DNA of 64,000 nt from the human T2T-CHM13v2.0 reference genome, Homo sapiens (GCF_009914755.1 NC_060941.1), one strand, 5' to 3'. Positions 9,563-64,000 are shown, counted from the first letter of the stretch. A program made the numbers and translations. The notes: generated by a model from the sequence alone, not told the origin.

Positions 9563-10020
9563 CTGTTATATGCTGCATAACAAGTTTGACGCTCAGAATC
9601 AAAATATATGGAAGACTTTTTTGCAGCCACTTGAAGAGATAGCGGAATTCTGAGAAGGAGCTACTACCATGATCTCCAGATTCTGCGGCAGTATCATCAG
9701 TCAGCCTTGCTTCACTGTGGGAGTGACCCCGTAAGCGACTGTGTACACATCCATGGGCACAGCTATGGACACCTGACCTTATATTTCTGGAGCTTGCATT
9801 TTCTGCACATTCTTTAGGTATGGAGTTTATCTGGATATGAACATCTCCAGAATGAGGGCAAGAACCCTCTCCTGTCAATCTTGTGTGGACACACTGAGGG
9901 GTTGAGGCATCCTCACTGCTTCCAGTTCCTGGAGGACTGTGCAGTTGGCTACGATTGGCTTGCATGGCCCTTAAATACTTTTTCTCTGACCCAGATGTCT
10001 TTGCTTCAGGCCTCTGTCTC
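9563..10020 (-). CDS. RNFT1: RNFT1 exon 2 (RRQRPEAK...MQANRSQLH...KLVMQHIT)
   Basis: ttttttag acceptor and GTAGG donor; 458 nt; contains ORF-track 9552..9965. Confidence 0.95.
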
Positions 10021-11229
10021 CTAAAAAATCAAATAAAAGATATTCTAAGTAAACAGGCAGTTAAATACCAGCAGTATATTCCTCACTGGGTATCCTTTAT
10101 TCACTAAAGGAGTAGCAAATAATCACAACAGATGAATTTTCAGGTTATTTATCACTGGACTCCTCCCTTCTCCCTTAATGCCAAGGCTCTGCTGCCCTAC
10201 ACAAATGATCTTTTAGGGAACATTTGCACCAAAAAAAAAAAAGTTGAGCTGCAAATGCTTCCAGTTCTCTAATGGCAGAAGGCATCCGCAAAACAGTCAT
10301 GAAGTATGGGTACCCAGCAGATGTTAATGAGCACCAGTCCTCACTGGGTACTCTGGTACATTTACTTTTCCCAAATGGTGCAGTTTCATCTCTGATGTAG
10401 ATTCTACATCAAAGAAGTTTCATAAGGAAGAGTGAGCCAGTATTTTTTAATGGTTGGAAATGTTAGGAAAAAAAACAACATTAAATCTTAATGCCTTATT
10501 ATCATCATAGGTAACTAATAATAAACACTGCACTTAGGTGACCTACAAATTAGATTTTCTGCTCAAGCAGCTTTCCCAAAGCTCATAAAGTTTCCAATAA
10601 TTAATGGTGCCACCAAGAATATTACCTCCCCGCGCAAAAGAATGTTACCTAAATACATTTAAAGCATAGATACTTTGGAGAGTCACCACGTAATTGCTAG
10701 GTAACTCTTTAGTCTGAATAAGCAGTTACACAGTCCGCCCAATAAAATGCCACCGTCGGTGGTGTGTGTATTACGGAGGGAGGGGTGTGAGGAAAGAGGA
10801 CTCTAGCAGAGAAAGATCTCTCTAATAAATGATCCAGTGTGGACCTCCTAGAAACAGAAGAACAGAGTCGGAATCCCAGCTGACAAAACGCAGAGGCTAT
10901 CCCACACTGCCGTGCTTTTCCCGTTTGTCTAGGAGGAGGCTAGAGTTAACGTCAGGGAATGTTCTGTGTCATTCTATTTCACTCCCAGGACTGAACAGTG
11001 GTGCAGTCACCGTGTCTGGCGGTTTGGGTTTCAGTGCTTTTCACTAAAGGCTTTCACCGAGGCCCCGACGCCACGGGTGTTATTTCGTCAAAACTGAAGA
11101 GCGACGTTGGACAGCAGGCTTTCAGTGTCTTTTCTATAAATAACATAGAACCCTCCCACTTTCCTTCATGCACAGACAAGAAAGAGGAGAAAAAAGGGAA
11201 GAAAATTCAACACAACTCTTCCGGAATCT

Positions 11230-60800: not shown

Positions 60801-63800
60801 TTGCTGCCTTCCATCTCCTCAGGATCCTCCTGGGTTCTGGCCCCACATGTTCCAGTCTGGCCCAGGGCTTGGAACCAGGGAGGTGCTCGGTTCATGGTGC
60901 CGGCTGCTCCCTGGGCCAGGAGAGCTCTTGGCAGCTGTGTCATCCCTCCTGGGTGACCCTGGCTTCTGCTCCGGGGAAGCCCCCATCCCTCTCATTCACC
61001 CCATCTCTGCTGGGACCCTGTGGCTTACTTGGTTCCGTATCGATCCCTGAAGAATATATGCCTCCTTAATGTCCCGCTTACGTCCAGGTCCATCTGCTGG
61101 ATGTGTTCAGATGACCTCTTGCCCTTCTCCTTCATGATCTGTAGGGCAGGGCCAAGAGGAGGAAGCAGTCTCAGAACAGATGGAAGACTCCCTGCCCCCA
61201 GTGGCAGTCAGCCCACAGTCAGCACTTCGGGAAGGAAGGACAGAAGGAAGGTTTCCTTCTGCAGAAAGCTGCATTTTGGCTTGTTACTGAAGCCAGGGAG
61301 GGTCACCAGAGCTGAGTTTGTCTGTGGTGACTGTGTCACCATCTGTGCCCAGGGTGTTCATCTGACCTTCACCCCCAGCTCCCCAGGGTGGTCTTGACGT
61401 TCCCTCCAGCTGGAGACCTGGGCCCCTGACACGGCCTGTCCTGTTGGTTGTGCTCTGGCTGAGCGTACCTGGTATCTTCCGGGGTTTTTCAACTTGATTT
61501 CCTCAATGTTCAGGAGGACTGACCACATCGGGCCCCGGATGTTCATGGGAATTCCCTGGTACGCTCGATCTATGAGCTGTGGGCAGAAAACAATCTGGTG
61601 TCGCAGGCCACGGGGTGACCCCAGTGAGGACCAGAGCCCGGGGATTCTGGAAATTGTTGGTTTTGGCCCCATGATTCCTCAGTAGAGGTGAGATCAAGCT
61701 GGGACAGGGTCTCCCTTCCCAGGACTGAAAGAGTGGATGGACACTCAGAGTCGAAACTCTGATCTGAACCTTTTCCTTCCTTCAGGTCACCAGGGCATCC
61801 CTAGCCTTGAGCTCCGGGTAGTCCCAGCCCTAGATTCAGATTCCCTCCCAGCAAGGTGACGCTTGCACGAATAGGCAGGAAATCTGGCGACCAGGCCTGC
61901 AGTCCTCTGGGCGAGGACAGCGTGCCACCCACCCTCTGAGAGGCTGACGGCGCCAGGCCACAGCCATGGGTGCCTGTCCCCTGTCTCTGCAGAGAGTGCT
62001 TCCTCCCTCCACACATTACCTTTCTGCTGTTTTTGTAGGTGTCCCATTCTCCCAGCATTTTCACCCACTTGCTCTTTCGGCTGATCTCCCGCCGAATTTG
62101 CTGTCAAATGAGGCATGTTGGAGTTAGCGGAGCTGCCAGGCTTCCCAGAGCCGCCCGCGGATGCTGGGTCTTGGGCTCTGGAGCCCTGGTGGGAGCCAGC
62201 TGGAAGGAGCCAGGGAAGGGCAGACCTCAAGGGCTGAGAGCCTTTGAGCAAATGAGCACCAGTGGGCTGGCTTTGGGACCCCGGGATGTACCATCCTCAG
62301 GCCACAGCCACACCAGTCTTAGGTCCCAGCCTCTAGGTGGGATCCTGACACAAGCGCGCAGCCACCCCCAAGCCAGGACTGTGGTTCTCCTTTTGGAATT
62401 TTATCAAACTGCCAAAGTTAACAGCAACCTGGGGTCAGGTCCAGCAGGGACTGCTGCCCCTCCCAGTGACAGCGCGTTGCCCTCACCCGCCACCGCTCAG
62501 GCCAGCTGCTTCCTCTGCCTCACTGACCACCCGCCCAGTCCCTACGTCCCTGGACCAGCCCCTCCATGCATCAGGCTCTTACCTTCACCTCCCGCGCAGT
62601 CAGAGGAGGCAGCTCCGTCTCACTGTAAGGCAACCCAGGCAGAGCTGAGGAACTGCACGGGGCCTGGAGCGGCCCCAGCCTGGGTGCCGGCCCCCAGAAA
62701 GGACTGGCTCTGTCCCTTTCCAGCTCAGGGCTCAGCCCAGGAGAAGGCACAGGGAAGGGAGGACAAGGGCCTTCCTGTGGGGCTGACTCCCAGGAGGGGC
62801 AGGACCTGGGAGAAGAAGGAGTGTAGGGACAGCCTGGCCGGGGTTACTGGGGCCCCTGGCGTGGGGGGCGGTCAGGCTGCCCAGTGGGGCTGCCCGTCCT
62901 GGACTCGAGGTGGTGCTTTCTGCTGGAGCTGAGAAAGGTTAGCCCTGAGATGGGATGGGGGCCGCCCAGGGTGGGTGACCGGGCCCTGACAGGAGTCCCT
63001 CAGGGAGTGACCACATCACCCCGCCAGGGTCAAGGGAGCCTGCCCTGAGACCTGCCCCGTGTACTCTGGGTGCACCAGGGGCCCATCCCACTTGACAGCC
63101 CCAAGGCCCTTGCAGGTTCTGACCTCCCAGCATCCACCTGCCTCTCCCTGCACCCGAGCCACACACCCTGCGTTTCAGAAGTGGCACGGCTCATCAGCTC
63201 CCTCCCGCCCTACCTCCCCTGGGATCCTCTGTCTCTCCATCCTGTGATCCCTGAGGGATGGGCTCCTGGCTGGGCTCCTCTTACCCGGCCCCAGATCCCT
63301 TCCCAGCACCAGACCCAGGTCTTTAGCCGCGAGCCCTGCTGCCTCCCCGGCCTCACCGTGAGATGCCCAGAACGGGGCCCTGCCCATCTTCCCCCCGTTC
63401 TCCTAGGGCTACAGCCCCCATTGTCACCATGCCTTTTCCCCTCACGGGACAGTGAGGGCCATAGCTCTAGGGGCATGGGGGAGAACAGGGGCAGGTGGGC
63501 CCTCAGAGACCTGCTGGACAACAGCCCTGAGGCCGGGCCAGGCGTCCCCTCACCCTGTGGCCATAACCCTTGCATCTCACCGGGGTTGTCTCCAAGTAGA
63601 CAGGGCCAGACCCTCAGGCTGCCCAGCTCCTCTTGTGCTCACTTGCCGACAGAACTGCTGAGCGCCCAGGGGCCTGACCTAGCCCAGTCTCCATTCCCAC
63701 CAGCTCCCTAGATGGGCCCCACACCTCTGGCCTAACAACAACCTCGGGCTGGACCTGCAGGGGAGTCAGGGAGGAGTTCTGTCCCTGGAAAGGAGGTTGA

Positions 63801-64000
63801 CCCGACCTGGTGAGACATGTCCTGCATCAGAAAGGCCTTTCTAAAAGCAAACCCATCCCTGAGCTGAGACAGGTGCTTTAGGGGTGAGGGGAGTGCAGAG
63901 GACTCACTGTACAATCCCCAAATGATCGACGTTGTTGTTGTAGCTTCCAAAAGACTTAGGCCCCTTGTCCTCTGGCAGCCCAGCTCGGTGTCCCTGTAGC
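54850..64000 (-). pseudogene. TBC1D3P1: TBC1D3-family copy with a premature stop; first coding exon is off the right edge
   Basis: Exons (minus strand): 63908-63993, 62583-62622, 62020-62100, 61469-61576, 61029-61138, 59772-59820, 59108-59228, 58300-58394, 57850-57915, 57283-57382 (TAG at 57284-57286), 56760-56912, and a last exon from 55778 with TGA at 55282-55284. Peptides such as [32 protein letters not shown] and [14 protein letters not shown] match TBC1D3. Confidence 0.9.
54870..54875 (-). terminator. Polyadenylation signal AATAAA of the TBC1D3 copy
   Basis: TTTATT on the plus strand about 410 nt downstream of the TGA, in the context GAAATAAATGTTTCCTGTTGAAATG, which resembles the remembered TBC1D3 mRNA 3' end. 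Confidence 0.7.

What the first reader, a model, noticed from the sequence alone, without database searches (positions are those of the whole stretch)
10006..64000. USP6-like chimera layout: TBC1D3 exons are phase-compatible with an intact DHX40 helicase-core frame, with a stop available in RNFT1 exon 2
Seen: TBC1D3, the DHX40 duplicate and RNFT1 are collinear on the minus strand. The TBC1D3 last exon contains a donor-like CGG|GTGAGA (exon end 55357) in phase 0, and the first DHX40 exon (49097) also starts in phase 0. The 11 DHX40 exons then read through 460 codons and end in phase 0. Spliced to the RNFT1 exon 2 acceptor (10020), this reads GAG ACA GAG GCC TGA (ETEA*). Knowledge: USP6 arose by TBC1D3-USP32 fusion, and from memory its junction (…CWQAEH…) lies at this same point of the TBC1D3 last exon; a TBC1D3P1-DHX40P1 readthrough is, as I recall, annotated as non-coding. 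Inference: apart from the single TAG at 57284-57286, the locus encodes a chimera of about 965 aa (about 501 TBC1D3 codons assuming the usual 24-codon first exon, plus 460, plus 4). It may be a second, aborted or formerly coding TBC1D3 fusion gene. Phase-0 donors upstream of the TAG (e.g. 57850, 58300) spliced straight to 49097 would bypass the stop today.
Basis: partly seen in the sequence, partly recalled or inferred. Interest (0 to 1): 0.85.

Follow-up and report, generated by a model that had tools for sequence, protein, structure and literature searches.

The report
In-frame but dead TBC1D3–DHX40 readthrough
A young patchwork of duplicated gene pieces on human chromosome 17 lines up in one reading frame much like the USP6 fusion gene, but it is interrupted, lacks key helicase parts and is best read as the already annotated non-coding readthrough pseudogene.

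Summary
TBC1D3P1 keeps its ATG, 13 of 13 canonical splice pairs and 501 open codons up to CGG|GTGAGA (exon end 55357, phase 0), with a single stop, Q309* (TAG, 57284-57286). DHX40P1 (DHX40 exons 4-14) is 460 open codons, phase 0 at both ends. RNFT1 exon 2 then reads ETEA*. The donor is the exact homologue of the USP6 fusion donor.

The fusion-gene reading is weak:
- DHX40P1 is a 27.2-kb duplicate only 0.58% diverged, so its open frame is explained by youth. Its exons have diverged no less than its introns.
- It lacks helicase motifs I and Ia and the C-terminal part, so the core is not intact.
- 8 of 13 TBC1D3 donors are phase 0, so frame compatibility is cheap.
- The only RefSeq isoform joins exon 7 (phase 2) to 49097, out of frame.
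- The ETEA* stop lies 443 nt before an exon junction, which predicts NMD.
- A 2026 preprint reports no Iso-Seq expression of TBC1D3P1.

A crude clock allows it to post-date the DHX40 arrival.

Verdict: known transcribed pseudogene; the open layout is real but probably accidental.

The parts
54669..64000 (-). TBC1D3P1 gene body inside the window. Exons 3-14 are at 63993-63908, 62622-62583, 62100-62020, 61576-61469, 61138-61029, 59820-59772, 59228-59108, 58394-58300, 57915-57850, 57382-57283, 56912-56760 and 55778-54669. Exons 2 and 1 lie beyond the window end at 64228-64156 and 65781-65671.
   Evidence: Exon mapping. Splice sites and ORF. RefSeq rows.
57284..57286 (-). The only in-frame stop of TBC1D3P1: codon 309, TAG (CAG in the parent), near the end of exon 12.
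   Evidence: Found in P1 only among 20 genomic copies of exon 12. P1-derived when polarised with TBC1D3P2, TBC1D3 and USP6.
55350..55359 (-). Internal donor-like site CGG|GTGAGA in the last exon (exon end 55357, phase 0). It is the exact homologue of the donor that joins the TBC1D3 part of USP6 to its USP32 part.
55293..55335 (-). A 43-nt stretch kept in P1 and USP6 but deleted in TBC1D3 and TBC1D3B. This is the ancestral state. Its placement is ambiguous by a few nt.
   Evidence: Alignment. Split BLAST hit. Guitart 2024 describes the 43-bp deletion as specific to human cluster 1/2 copies (section 7 read).
55282..55284 (-). Ancestral-type stop TGA of the unspliced TBC1D3P1 frame, 24 codons after the internal donor. 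The ORF would be 525 codons were it not for the TAG.
   Evidence: Sequence. Translation.
49333..54668 (-). 3' flank belonging to the TBC1D3 duplicon. It is 97% identical over its whole length to the flanks of TBC1D3G, D and K. It contains the TBC1D3 poly(A) hexamer region; hexamers start at 54875, 50383, 50367 and 50313.
49333..51282 (-). A piece derived from USP32 intron 1 (chr17:61249044-61250992, 97.9% identity). It is cut off at 49332/49333 by the DHX40 segment. In TBC1D3G and D the same block runs on for a further 5.4 kb.
22130..49332 (-). DHX40P1: a 27.2-kb inverted segmental duplicate of DHX40 (chr17:60441639-60468868) carrying exons 4-14. Identity is 99.05%, with 158 mismatches and 38 indel events, none of them in exons.
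   Evidence: Only two genomic copies of the exon-4 region exist.
48978..49097 (-). First DHX40P1 exon (DHX40 exon 4, aa 143-182), with acceptor ...cattag|GAG in phase 0. It matches Pfam DEAD profile positions 96-128 of 167, so the first ~95 positions of that domain are not present.
22757..22865 (-). Last DHX40P1 exon (DHX40 exon 14). Its donor CAG|gtgatt ends in phase 0. In NR_002924.3 it is spliced to RNFT1 exon 2.
22123..22422 (.). Alu element holding the distal breakpoint of the DHX40 duplicate. The sequence follows the DHX40 Alu and then switches to the RNFT1-upstream Alu, which is an Alu-Alu crossover.
   Evidence: Three-way alignment and masked-repeat rows. Homology limits.
61029..61138 (-). 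TBC1D3P1 exon 7. It is the exon RefSeq NR_002924.3 actually joins to 49097. It ends in phase 2, so the junction is out of frame.
10006..10020 (-). Start of RNFT1 exon 2 read in the DHX40 frame: ETEA then TGA (10008-10006). The RNFT1 frame itself is offset by one base.
   Evidence: RNFT1 coding rows.
9099..10020 (-). RNFT1 exon 2 (9563-10020) and an extended exon 3 (9099-9352), used as the 3' end of NR_002924.3. The junction 9563|9352 lies 443 nt downstream of the ETEA* stop.

Best explanation
The locus is a recent mosaic of segmental duplications that is transcribed, at most weakly, as a non-coding readthrough pseudogene.

How the mosaic arose: an orphan TBC1D3 copy of the ancestral type (P1), with its 3' flank, sat upstream of RNFT1. 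A 27.2-kb inverted copy of DHX40 exons 4-14 then landed between them. One junction formed by TT microhomology inside a USP32-intron-1-derived block. The other formed by an Alu-Alu crossover.

Why the frame is open: it is inherited and accidental.
- The TBC1D3 exon phases and the cryptic donor in the last exon are features of the whole family.
- DHX40 exons 4-14 happen to begin and end in phase 0.
- They are still open because the copy is only ~0.6% diverged.

What the transcripts do: those that start at the CpG-poor TBC1D3P1 promoter and escape its poly(A) site splice into the strong inherited DHX40 and RNFT1 acceptors. The products carry premature stops and are predicted NMD substrates.

Shown here: the anatomy, the frames, the ages, the lack of constraint and the missing helicase motifs.
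Inferred: the order of events, the NMD fate and the absence of any protein.
For: Duplicate age and lack of constraint:
- The duplicate is 27,267 alignment columns long at 99.05% identity with 158 mismatches.
- Exon divergence is 11/1380 = 0.80%; non-exonic divergence is 147/25786 = 0.57%; Fisher P = 0.27.
- Constraint on both copies at omega 0.1 predicts 2.8 exonic differences against 11 seen, P = 0.00016.
- The 5 non-synonymous to 6 synonymous split fits a neutral P1 lineage, P(N<=5) = 0.34.

Incomplete helicase:
- Motif I (GNTGSGKT, aa 76-83) and TQPR (aa 104-107) lie outside the duplicated aa 143-602.
- The first exon aligns to DEAD profile positions 96-128 of 167.
- DHX40 exons 15-18 are absent.

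Breakpoints are resolved to the base.

Frames and transcripts:
- 8 of 13 TBC1D3P1 donors are phase 0 (exon lengths).
- RefSeq's only transcript, NR_002924.3, joins exon 7 (phase 2) to 49097. That gives a 67-aa ORF, then a 302-aa internal DHX40-frame ORF ending in ETEA*.
- The ETEA* stop is 443 nt upstream of the 9563|9352 junction. Under the 50-55-nt rule (established knowledge) this predicts NMD.

Promoter and expression:
- The P1 TSS region has CpG o/e 0.40, against 0.88 at the RNFT1 TSS.
- Preprint 10.64898/2026.01.14.699191 reports no Iso-Seq evidence of expression for TBC1D3P1-P7 (passage).
- Guitart 2024 states that in humans transcription and ORF maintenance are mostly in clusters 1 and 2, not in the distal orphan copies (section 7 read).
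- A table in PMC5793191 lists the readthrough as noncoding.
Against: - The layout is unusually clean. All 24 splice pairs are canonical, and a single nonsense codon is the only lesion in 965 codons.
- There are no exonic indels where 2.0 would be expected from the non-exonic density (P0 = 0.13). That density is inflated by simple repeats.
- 5 of 11 changes are non-synonymous, below the one-lineage neutral mean of 7.9 (P = 0.059).
- The three exon alterations in NR_002924.3 (153, 132 and 183 nt) all keep the DHX40 frame.
- The TAG is recent and P1-specific and may post-date the DHX40 arrival.
- USP6 shows that this donor works even with the TBC1D3 AATAAA hexamer left in the intron.
- The Iso-Seq evidence covers only a few cell types. 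I could not see its supplementary figure.
- Many RNA-seq papers list the gene as expressed (listings only).
Confidence: 0.8

Rival explanations
1. After the DHX40 piece arrived, and before the TAG arose, the locus was a real second TBC1D3 fusion gene. It would have made a ~965-aa TBC1D3-DHX40 protein through the USP6-type donor, and was later lost.
For: - The donor is the same one used in USP6, and its match to the splice consensus is equal by eye.
- The frames match.
- The TAG is P1-only (1 of 20 copies) and is one of only 5 P1-lineage CDS changes.
- The crude clock ratio of 0.67-0.75 makes 'TAG after DHX40 arrival' somewhat more likely than not.
- In USP6 the donor is used despite an intact poly(A) hexamer in the intron.
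Against: - There is no excess conservation of DHX40P1 exons.
- The helicase lacks its P-loop, motif Ia and the exons 15-18 part, so no ATPase is expected.
- The stop in RNFT1 exon 2 predicts NMD.
- No annotated transcript uses 55357>49097.
- The promoter is CpG-poor.
- The difference in age between the DHX40 duplicate and the P1-P2 coalescence is not significant at non-CpG sites (P = 0.08). Gene conversion could distort both ages.
Confidence: 0.06
2. The locus makes a protein today that bypasses the TAG. One route is an in-frame junction from a phase-0 donor upstream of exon 12 (7 of the 10 donors of exons 2-11) to 49097. The other is the 302-aa DHX40-frame ORF of NR_002924.3.
For: - Both frames are open: aa 1-276 up to the exon 11 donor, plus 460 DHX40 codons, plus ETEA*.
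- The 302-aa ORF exists in a curated cDNA-based RefSeq record.
- All three exon alterations in that transcript are in frame.
Against: - The curated junction is out of frame, and the 302-aa ORF lies behind a 67-aa upstream ORF.
- NMD is predicted.
- The product would have a truncated TBC domain and a helicase without a P-loop.
- No paper in the held library holds both TBC1D3 and DHX40 as whole words (0 papers). None of the 16 papers naming the readthrough concerns translation, judged by title and abstract start.
Confidence: 0.04
3. The readthrough matters as an RNA or as an act of transcription, not as a protein. It runs across the RNFT1 promoter and into RNFT1 exons 2-3, so it could interfere with RNFT1 or serve it as an alternative upstream promoter.
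For: - NR_002924.3 skips RNFT1 exon 1 and uses exons 2 and 3.
- It holds a 166-aa RNFT1-frame ORF starting at an internal Met.
- The gene recurs in lncRNA and pseudogene expression signatures (listings only).
Against: - There is no direct test.
- The expression signatures are correlative, and short reads are hard to assign among 99%-identical copies.
- Iso-Seq showed no expression in the cell types examined.
- The RNFT1-frame ORF is the third ORF of the transcript.
Confidence: 0.1

Closest known systems
USP6 (Tre-2/TRE17), the hominoid TBC1D3-USP32 fusion gene
   Same: - A TBC1D3 5' part is joined to a partial duplicate of a neighbouring 17q23 gene.
- The donor inside the TBC1D3 last exon is the exact homologue of 55357.
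- Both keep the ancestral 43-nt stretch.
- Both keep the TBC1D3 AATAAA hexamer downstream of the donor.
   Different: - USP6 has a 2-nt deletion 10 nt before the donor. This puts the donor in phase 1, matching USP32 exon 19, which is also phase 1. P1 lacks the deletion and is in phase 0.
- The USP6 ORF is uninterrupted and its partner brings a complete catalytic domain. That USP6 is an active deubiquitinase is established knowledge, not tested here.
- In P1 there is a TAG and the partner lacks motifs I and Ia. The acceptor is 6.3 kb away rather than 1.75 kb. The junction is not annotated.
TBC1D3P2 and the other orphan TBC1D3 pseudogenes
   Same: - TBC1D3P2 is the nearest relative of P1: 0.87% divergence over ~12 kb.
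- It has the same ancestral C-terminus.
- It is also disabled by one small lesion in exon 12, a 1-nt deletion.
- P1 and P2 are reported as the duplications flanking the recurrent 17q23.1q23.2 deletion (passage).
   Different: - The two lesions are independent.
- P2 has no DHX40 piece downstream, and its flank differs: 96% identity over the first 1.95 kb, followed by an inverted block.
NPEPPS-TBC1D3 readthrough transcripts (2026 preprints)
   Same: Segmental duplication placed two genes on one strand, and splicing joins them into one transcript (passages).
   Different: There TBC1D3 is the downstream partner, keeps its own start codon and complete ORF, and is driven by a CpG-island promoter. 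Here TBC1D3P1 is the upstream partner, has a CpG-poor promoter and has a broken ORF.
DHX40, a DEAH-box helicase (the parent gene)
   Same: Exons 4-14 are copied with their introns. Over 460 codons there are 11 nucleotide and 5 amino-acid differences. Motifs II, III and VI are present.
   Different: The copy lacks exons 1-3 (start codon, motifs I and Ia) and exons 15-18.

Membership tests
USP6-type TBC1D3 fusion gene | TBC1D3 5' part ending at the internal donor of the last exon | tested here: met
   The homologous donor is present: CGG|GTGAGA in P1, AGG|GTGAGG in USP6.
USP6-type TBC1D3 fusion gene | That donor is actually spliced to the partner's exon in transcripts | tested here: not met
   The only RefSeq transcript joins exon 7 (61029) to 49097. 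No RefSeq TBC1D3 paralog model printed uses the internal donor. Long-read data could not be examined.
USP6-type TBC1D3 fusion gene | Junction in frame with the partner | tested here: met
   Phase 0 joins phase 0. The chance expectation is 1 in 3.
USP6-type TBC1D3 fusion gene | Uninterrupted ORF from the TBC1D3 ATG through the partner | tested here: not met
   TAG at codon 309.
USP6-type TBC1D3 fusion gene | Partner contributes a complete functional domain | tested here: not met
   Motifs I and Ia lie outside aa 143-602. The DEAD profile match starts at position 96 of 167. Exons 15-18 are absent.
USP6-type TBC1D3 fusion gene | Purifying selection on the fused ORF | tested here: not met
   Exon divergence is 0.80% against 0.57% for non-exonic sequence. 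Omega 0.1 is rejected, P = 0.00016. The N/S split alone has little power.
Transcribed readthrough pseudogene (RefSeq class) | One curated transcript spanning two or more neighbouring same-strand gene units, with no CDS annotated | tested here: met
   NR_002924.3 spans TBC1D3P1 exons 1, 2 and 7, nine DHX40P1 exons and RNFT1 exons 2-3, with no coding part annotated. Its ORFs are 67, 302, 166 and 54 aa.
Segmental duplication | At least 1 kb at 90% identity or more to another genomic locus | tested here: met
   27.2 kb at 99.05% to DHX40. ~12 kb at 99.1% to TBC1D3P2. 5.3 kb at 97% to the flanks of TBC1D3G, D and K.
DEAH-box (DExH) RNA helicase | Complete RecA1 domain with Walker A (motif I) for ATP binding | tested here: not met
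   GNTGSGKT at aa 76-83 of DHX40 is encoded by exons that were not duplicated.
DEAH-box (DExH) RNA helicase | Motifs II (DEAH), III (SAT) and VI (QRxGRAGR) | tested here: met
   They sit at aa 173-176, 210-212 and 392-399, inside the duplicated part.

The most novel reading that the evidence does not exclude
The nonsense codon is a very recent change, probably on the human lineage and possibly still polymorphic. Recent ancestors, or TAG-free haplotypes, would then carry an open 965-codon TBC1D3-DHX40 chimera spliced through the same donor as USP6. That chimera was, or is, actually translated: a second, short-lived USP6-style fusion caught just after its death.
Probability: 0.05. Interest if true: 0.6.

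Novelty: already known. Interest (0 to 1): 0.25.

Why it matters
If the chimera had ever been made, it would be a second case of a TBC1D3 core duplicon creating a fusion gene through the same cryptic donor as USP6. 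It would also be an example of gene birth and death within a few million years.

As the evidence stands, the value is smaller but real:
- It documents to the base how a young DHX40 duplicate was inserted next to an orphan TBC1D3 copy.
- It shows that TBC1D3P1 and TBC1D3P2 are each one small, independent lesion away from an ancestral-type TBC1D3 ORF.
- It shows that USP6 needed a 2-nt deletion to be in frame at the shared donor.
- It turns 'was it ever open?' into a simple genotyping question for pangenome and ape assemblies.

Tried and rejected
1. Paralog 'empty site' test for the order of events. The RNFT1P3 duplication on 17p11.2 matches the RNFT1 upstream region (89-93%) up to window 22410, which is the Alu at the DHX40 breakpoint. 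Beyond that point it has no 17q23 counterpart: 41 matches, all either self or dispersed repeats. The test is therefore inconclusive.

2. Search for the continuation of the truncated USP32-intron-1 block on the far side of the DHX40 insert. Only Alu-type hits of 212-322 bp at 74-85% identity were found in the window. The event was therefore not a simple insertion.

3. Pfam scan, exon by exon, because joined sequence may not be typed. Only 2 of 10 exon translations matched: DEAD (E = 0.0082, below the curated cut-off) and HA2_C (E = 3.7e-5). This gives weak support, and the motif positions carry the argument.

4. Protein database searches and structure prediction were not run. The search for homologous proteins, the Atlas search and structure prediction were left unused. 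Single exons are too short for the length filter, and a spliced sequence cannot be given by reference. As a result the five DHX40P1 amino-acid changes were not polarised with orthologs. That they are P1-derived is an inference.

5. Literature.
- Paulding 2003 (PMC151371) is not held. What I say of the origin of USP6 beyond my own alignments is recalled.
- Searches for DHX40 with 'human-specific' + 'duplication' (1 paper) and with 'segmental duplication' (4 papers) gave nothing on the duplicate, judged by their listings.
- PMC11463660 does not hold DHX40 or RNFT1.
- Supplementary figures and tables were not seen. These include Guitart Fig. S8 and preprint Supplementary Fig. 5, which may show per-copy ORF and expression data for TBC1D3P1.

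6. No ape or second human assembly was available, so the TAG and DHX40P1 could not be dated directly. The ages rest on paralog divergence. The comparison with human-chimpanzee divergence of about 1.2% is recalled.

7. No quantitative splice-site model was available. Donor strength was judged only by consensus matches read by eye and by homology to the donor USP6 uses.

Full report
OBSERVATION

TBC1D3P1. All 14 TBC1D3 exons were located in P1.
- On the minus strand, exons 2-14 have the same AG/GT splice dinucleotides as TBC1D3 in 13 of 13 exons. The ATG is intact and there is no indel.
- The CDS is 1503 nt = 501 codons up to the internal site GCGG|GTGAGA, whose exon end is 55357, so that donor is in phase 0.
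- The first coding exon lies outside the window at 64156-64227. I read it from the adjoining reference sequence, and it has the assumed 24 codons.
- The only stop is codon 309, TAG at 57286-57284, where TBC1D3 has CAG.

DHX40P1.
- It is DHX40 exons 4-14 (aa 143-602), 1380 nt = 460 open codons, with 11 nucleotide and 5 amino-acid differences from the parent.
- It begins after 426 CDS nt of the parent and ends at nt 1806, so it is in phase 0 at both ends.
- 11 of 11 exons have canonical splice sites.

RNFT1 exon 2, read from 10020, gives ETEA and then TGA. The total of 501 + 460 + 4 = 965 codons is right.

ANATOMY OF THE LOCUS

The window is a mosaic of duplications.

The 5.3 kb between TBC1D3P1 and DHX40P1 (49333-54668) is the 3' flank of the TBC1D3 duplicon.
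- It is 97% identical over its whole length to the flanks of TBC1D3G, D and K.
- Its last 1.95 kb is a piece of USP32 intron 1 (chr17:61249044-61250992, 97.9%).

The DHX40 copy runs from 49332 to 22130 and equals chr17:60441639-60468868 in inverted orientation. It spans 27,267 alignment columns at 99.05% identity, with 158 mismatches and 38 indel events. The exon-4 region has just two copies in the genome.

The proximal junction is resolved to the base.
- The USP32-intron-derived sequence stops at ...ggac, and DHX40 intron 3 continues with TTGG....
- The two sources share a TT.
- In TBC1D3G and D the USP32-intron block runs on for another 5.4 kb at 97.3%. That continuation is absent from the window.
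- The DHX40 piece therefore truncated a pre-existing duplicon. It was not a simple insertion.

The distal junction lies inside an Alu (22123-22422). The sequence first follows the DHX40 Alu and then the RNFT1-upstream Alu, which is an Alu-Alu crossover. The RNFT1-upstream state is known from the old RNFT1P3 duplicate on 17p11.2.

AGES AND ORDER OF EVENTS

Divergences:

| Comparison | All sites | Non-CpG sites |
|---|---|---|
| DHX40P1 vs DHX40 | 0.585% | 0.430% (114/26492) |
| TBC1D3P1 vs TBC1D3P2 (nearest relative) | 0.878% | 0.572% (62/10836) |
| TBC1D3P1 vs TBC1D3 | 1.76-1.78% | 1.111% (119/10712) |
| TBC1D3P1 vs TBC1D3B | 1.86% | not computed |

- P1-P2 identity drops to 96% in the first 1.95 kb of flank. 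The gene-body similarity may therefore reflect gene conversion.
- The P1-P2 divergence is larger than the DHX40 one at all sites (P = 0.0017) but not significantly so at non-CpG sites (P = 0.08).
- Both are roughly half the human-chimpanzee distance (about 1.2%, recalled). These events may therefore lie on or near the human lineage, although gene conversion would make them look younger than they are.

The TAG is recent and private to P1.
- Among 20 genomic copies of exon 12, only P1 has T at this position.
- Of the other 19, 11 have CAG: nine cluster genes, P2 and USP6. The remaining 8 have AGG, AAG or TGG.
- Polarised with P2, TBC1D3 and USP6, the P1 lineage has just 5 CDS changes: 4 non-synonymous including the stop, and 1 synonymous.
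- P2 is disabled independently by a 1-nt deletion in the same exon.

On a crude uniform clock, the DHX40 arrival covers 0.67-0.75 of the time since the P1-P2 coalescence. It is therefore somewhat more likely than not that P1 was still open when DHX40P1 arrived. This is inference, not proof.

IS THE OPEN DHX40 FRAME EVIDENCE OF SELECTION?

No.
- Exons differ at 11/1380 sites (0.80%) and non-exonic sequence at 147/25786 (0.57%); Fisher P = 0.27.
- With the non-exonic rate as the yardstick, constraint on both copies at omega 0.1 predicts 2.8 exonic differences. Eleven are seen (P = 0.00016).
- Full neutrality on both lineages predicts 7.9.
- Eleven random substitutions leave the frame stop-free 67% of the time.
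- Zero exonic indels has P = 0.13 even on the repeat-inflated intronic density.
- The 5:6 non-synonymous to synonymous split is below the one-lineage neutral mean of 7.9 (P = 0.059). It fits a neutral copy paired with a constrained parent (P = 0.34).

Youth is enough to explain the intact frame.

WHAT THE CHIMERA WOULD CONTAIN

The DHX40 part is not an intact helicase core.
- Motif I (GNTGSGKT, aa 76-83) and TQPR (aa 104-107) are encoded by exons 1-3, which were not copied.
- DEAH (aa 173), SAT (aa 210) and QRSGRAGR (aa 392) are present.
- The first copied exon aligns to Pfam DEAD positions 96-128 of 167, and exon 12' to HA2_C positions 2-38 of 77. Only 2 of 10 exon translations matched at all.
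- Exons 15-18 are absent.
- By established knowledge of DExH helicases, a protein without the Walker A motif cannot bind and hydrolyse ATP normally.

The TBC1D3 part is of the ancestral type.
- It keeps the 43-nt stretch that TBC1D3 and TBC1D3B have lost. Guitart 2024 describes this deletion as specific to human cluster 1/2 copies (section 7 read).
- Unspliced, the frame would end at TGA 55284-55282, giving 525 codons.

TRANSCRIPTS

RefSeq has one transcript, NR_002924.3.
- It uses TBC1D3P1 exons 1, 2 and 7, then the 49097 acceptor, then nine DHX40P1 exons, then RNFT1 exon 2 (10020) and an extended exon 3.
The TBC1D3-to-DHX40 junction goes from phase 2 to phase 0 and is out of frame.
- Its ORFs are a 67-aa TBC1D3 N-terminal ORF, a 302-aa DHX40-frame ORF from an internal Met to ETEA*, a 166-aa RNFT1-frame ORF and a 54-aa ORF.
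- The three DHX40P1 alterations all keep the frame: a 153-nt shortening of exon 5' through an internal donor also present in the parent, and skipping of the 132-nt and 183-nt exons. Two predicted parent isoforms also skip the 183-nt exon.

Frame compatibility is cheap at this locus. 8 of 13 TBC1D3P1 donors are phase 0, including 7 of the 10 upstream of exon 12.

Any ORF ending at ETEA* stops 443 nt before the 9563|9352 junction. This predicts NMD.

No RefSeq TBC1D3 paralog model that I printed uses the internal donor.

The P1 promoter region is CpG-poor: o/e 0.40, against 0.88 at RNFT1.

COMPARISON WITH USP6

The USP6 exon ends at the homologous ...GAGAGG|GTGAGG, and the protein reads ...CWQAEHCGE|VHNKD....

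Two details are new to me.
- USP6 carries a 2-nt deletion 10 nt before the donor. This shifts the donor to phase 1 and matches USP32 exon 19, which is also phase 1. Without that deletion, which is the P1 state, the USP32 junction would be out of frame.
- The USP6 junction intron still holds the TBC1D3 AATAAA hexamer. This donor can therefore outcompete the poly(A) site when an acceptor lies 1.75 kb downstream. In P1 the acceptor is 6.3 kb away.

LITERATURE

- Sixteen papers hold the name TBC1D3P1-DHX40P1 and 22 hold DHX40P1. By title and abstract start they are expression signatures, gene lists or case reports (listings).
- A table in PMC5793191 lists the readthrough as noncoding (passage).
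- No paper in the held library holds both TBC1D3 and DHX40 as whole words (0 papers).
- Guitart 2024 (PMC11610581; section 7 and other passages read) states that in humans transcription and ORF maintenance are mostly in clusters 1 and 2 rather than in the distal orphan copies. It also reports that distal q-arm copies are expressed in chimpanzee and bonobo.
- Preprint 10.64898/2026.01.14.699191 (passages) reports no Iso-Seq evidence of expression for TBC1D3P1-P7. Its human Iso-Seq data come from CHM13hTERT and two neural progenitor lines. It also names TBC1D3P1 and TBC1D3P2 as the duplications flanking the recurrent 17q23.1-q23.2 deletion.

VERDICT

The best-supported reading is an accidental in-frame mosaic that yields, at most, non-coding NMD-prone readthrough RNA (confidence 0.8).

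- The readthrough isoform known to RefSeq is out of frame, and the limited published Iso-Seq shows no expression. Both count against the fusion-gene idea.
- The TAG is not old. This keeps open the narrower claim that the frame was open when the DHX40 piece arrived.

That narrower claim can be settled by genotyping pangenome and ape assemblies.

Noticed in passing
L010 (chr17:5033025-5033044), aligned with window 55357-55380: USP6 has a 2-nt deletion 10 nt upstream of the shared donor. This puts the donor in phase 1, matching USP32 exon 19, which is also phase 1. TBC1D3, TBC1D3B and P1 lack the deletion and are in phase 0, which would be out of frame with USP32.
   Followed up: partly
L007 (TBC1D3P2, chr17:63137064-63137162), compared with window 57283-57382: TBC1D3P2 is disabled by its own 1-nt deletion in exon 12, the same exon that carries P1's TAG. 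The two orphan copies were therefore knocked out independently after they last shared sequence.
   Followed up: yes
L007 (TBC1D3P2 exon 3), compared with window 63910-63930: Seven P2-derived changes are packed into 21 nt of exon 3, and three of them match the USP6 state. This looks like a short gene-conversion patch from an older copy.
   Followed up: no
window 49333-51282; L047 and L049 (flanks of TBC1D3G and D); L048 (USP32 intron 1): The TBC1D3 duplicon of copies G, D (and K) carries a block of USP32 intron 1: 1.95 kb in P1, and 7.4 kb in G and D. This is a second trace of TBC1D3-USP32 contact besides USP6.
   Followed up: partly
window 36000-43999: DHX40P1 has only 15 mismatches to DHX40 in these 8 kb (about 0.19%), against about 0.7% elsewhere in the duplicate. 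This could be gene conversion or local rate variation.
   Followed up: no
window 46762: One of the 11 exonic differences changes the last-but-one base of exon 7' (donor CAG|gt in DHX40, CTG|gt in DHX40P1). This 132-nt exon is one of the two that NR_002924.3 skips.
   Followed up: no
window 23389 (end of DHX40P1 exon 13') and 10020: Exon 13' ends in phase 2 (cumulative 1271 nt). RNFT1 exon 2 also starts in phase 2 (56 coding nt in exon 1). Skipping exon 14' would therefore put DHX40P1 in frame with RNFT1. This is arithmetic from the exon lengths, and no such transcript is annotated.
   Followed up: no
window 42350-43702 (+ strand): The last exon of RNFT1-DT (NR_110815.1) overlaps DHX40P1 exons 9' and 10' in antisense.
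   Followed up: no
window 54669-64000 and chr17:63134633-63145601: P1 and P2 are direct repeats about 2.25 Mb apart, with 99.1% identity over ~12 kb. A 2026 preprint names them as the duplications flanking the recurrent 17q23.1-q23.2 deletion (passage).
   Followed up: partly
window 11477-22410; chr17:20703629-20716287: The RNFT1P3 duplicate on 17p11.2 includes ~11 kb of RNFT1 upstream sequence at 89-93% identity. It ends in the same Alu that holds the DHX40 breakpoint.
   Followed up: partly
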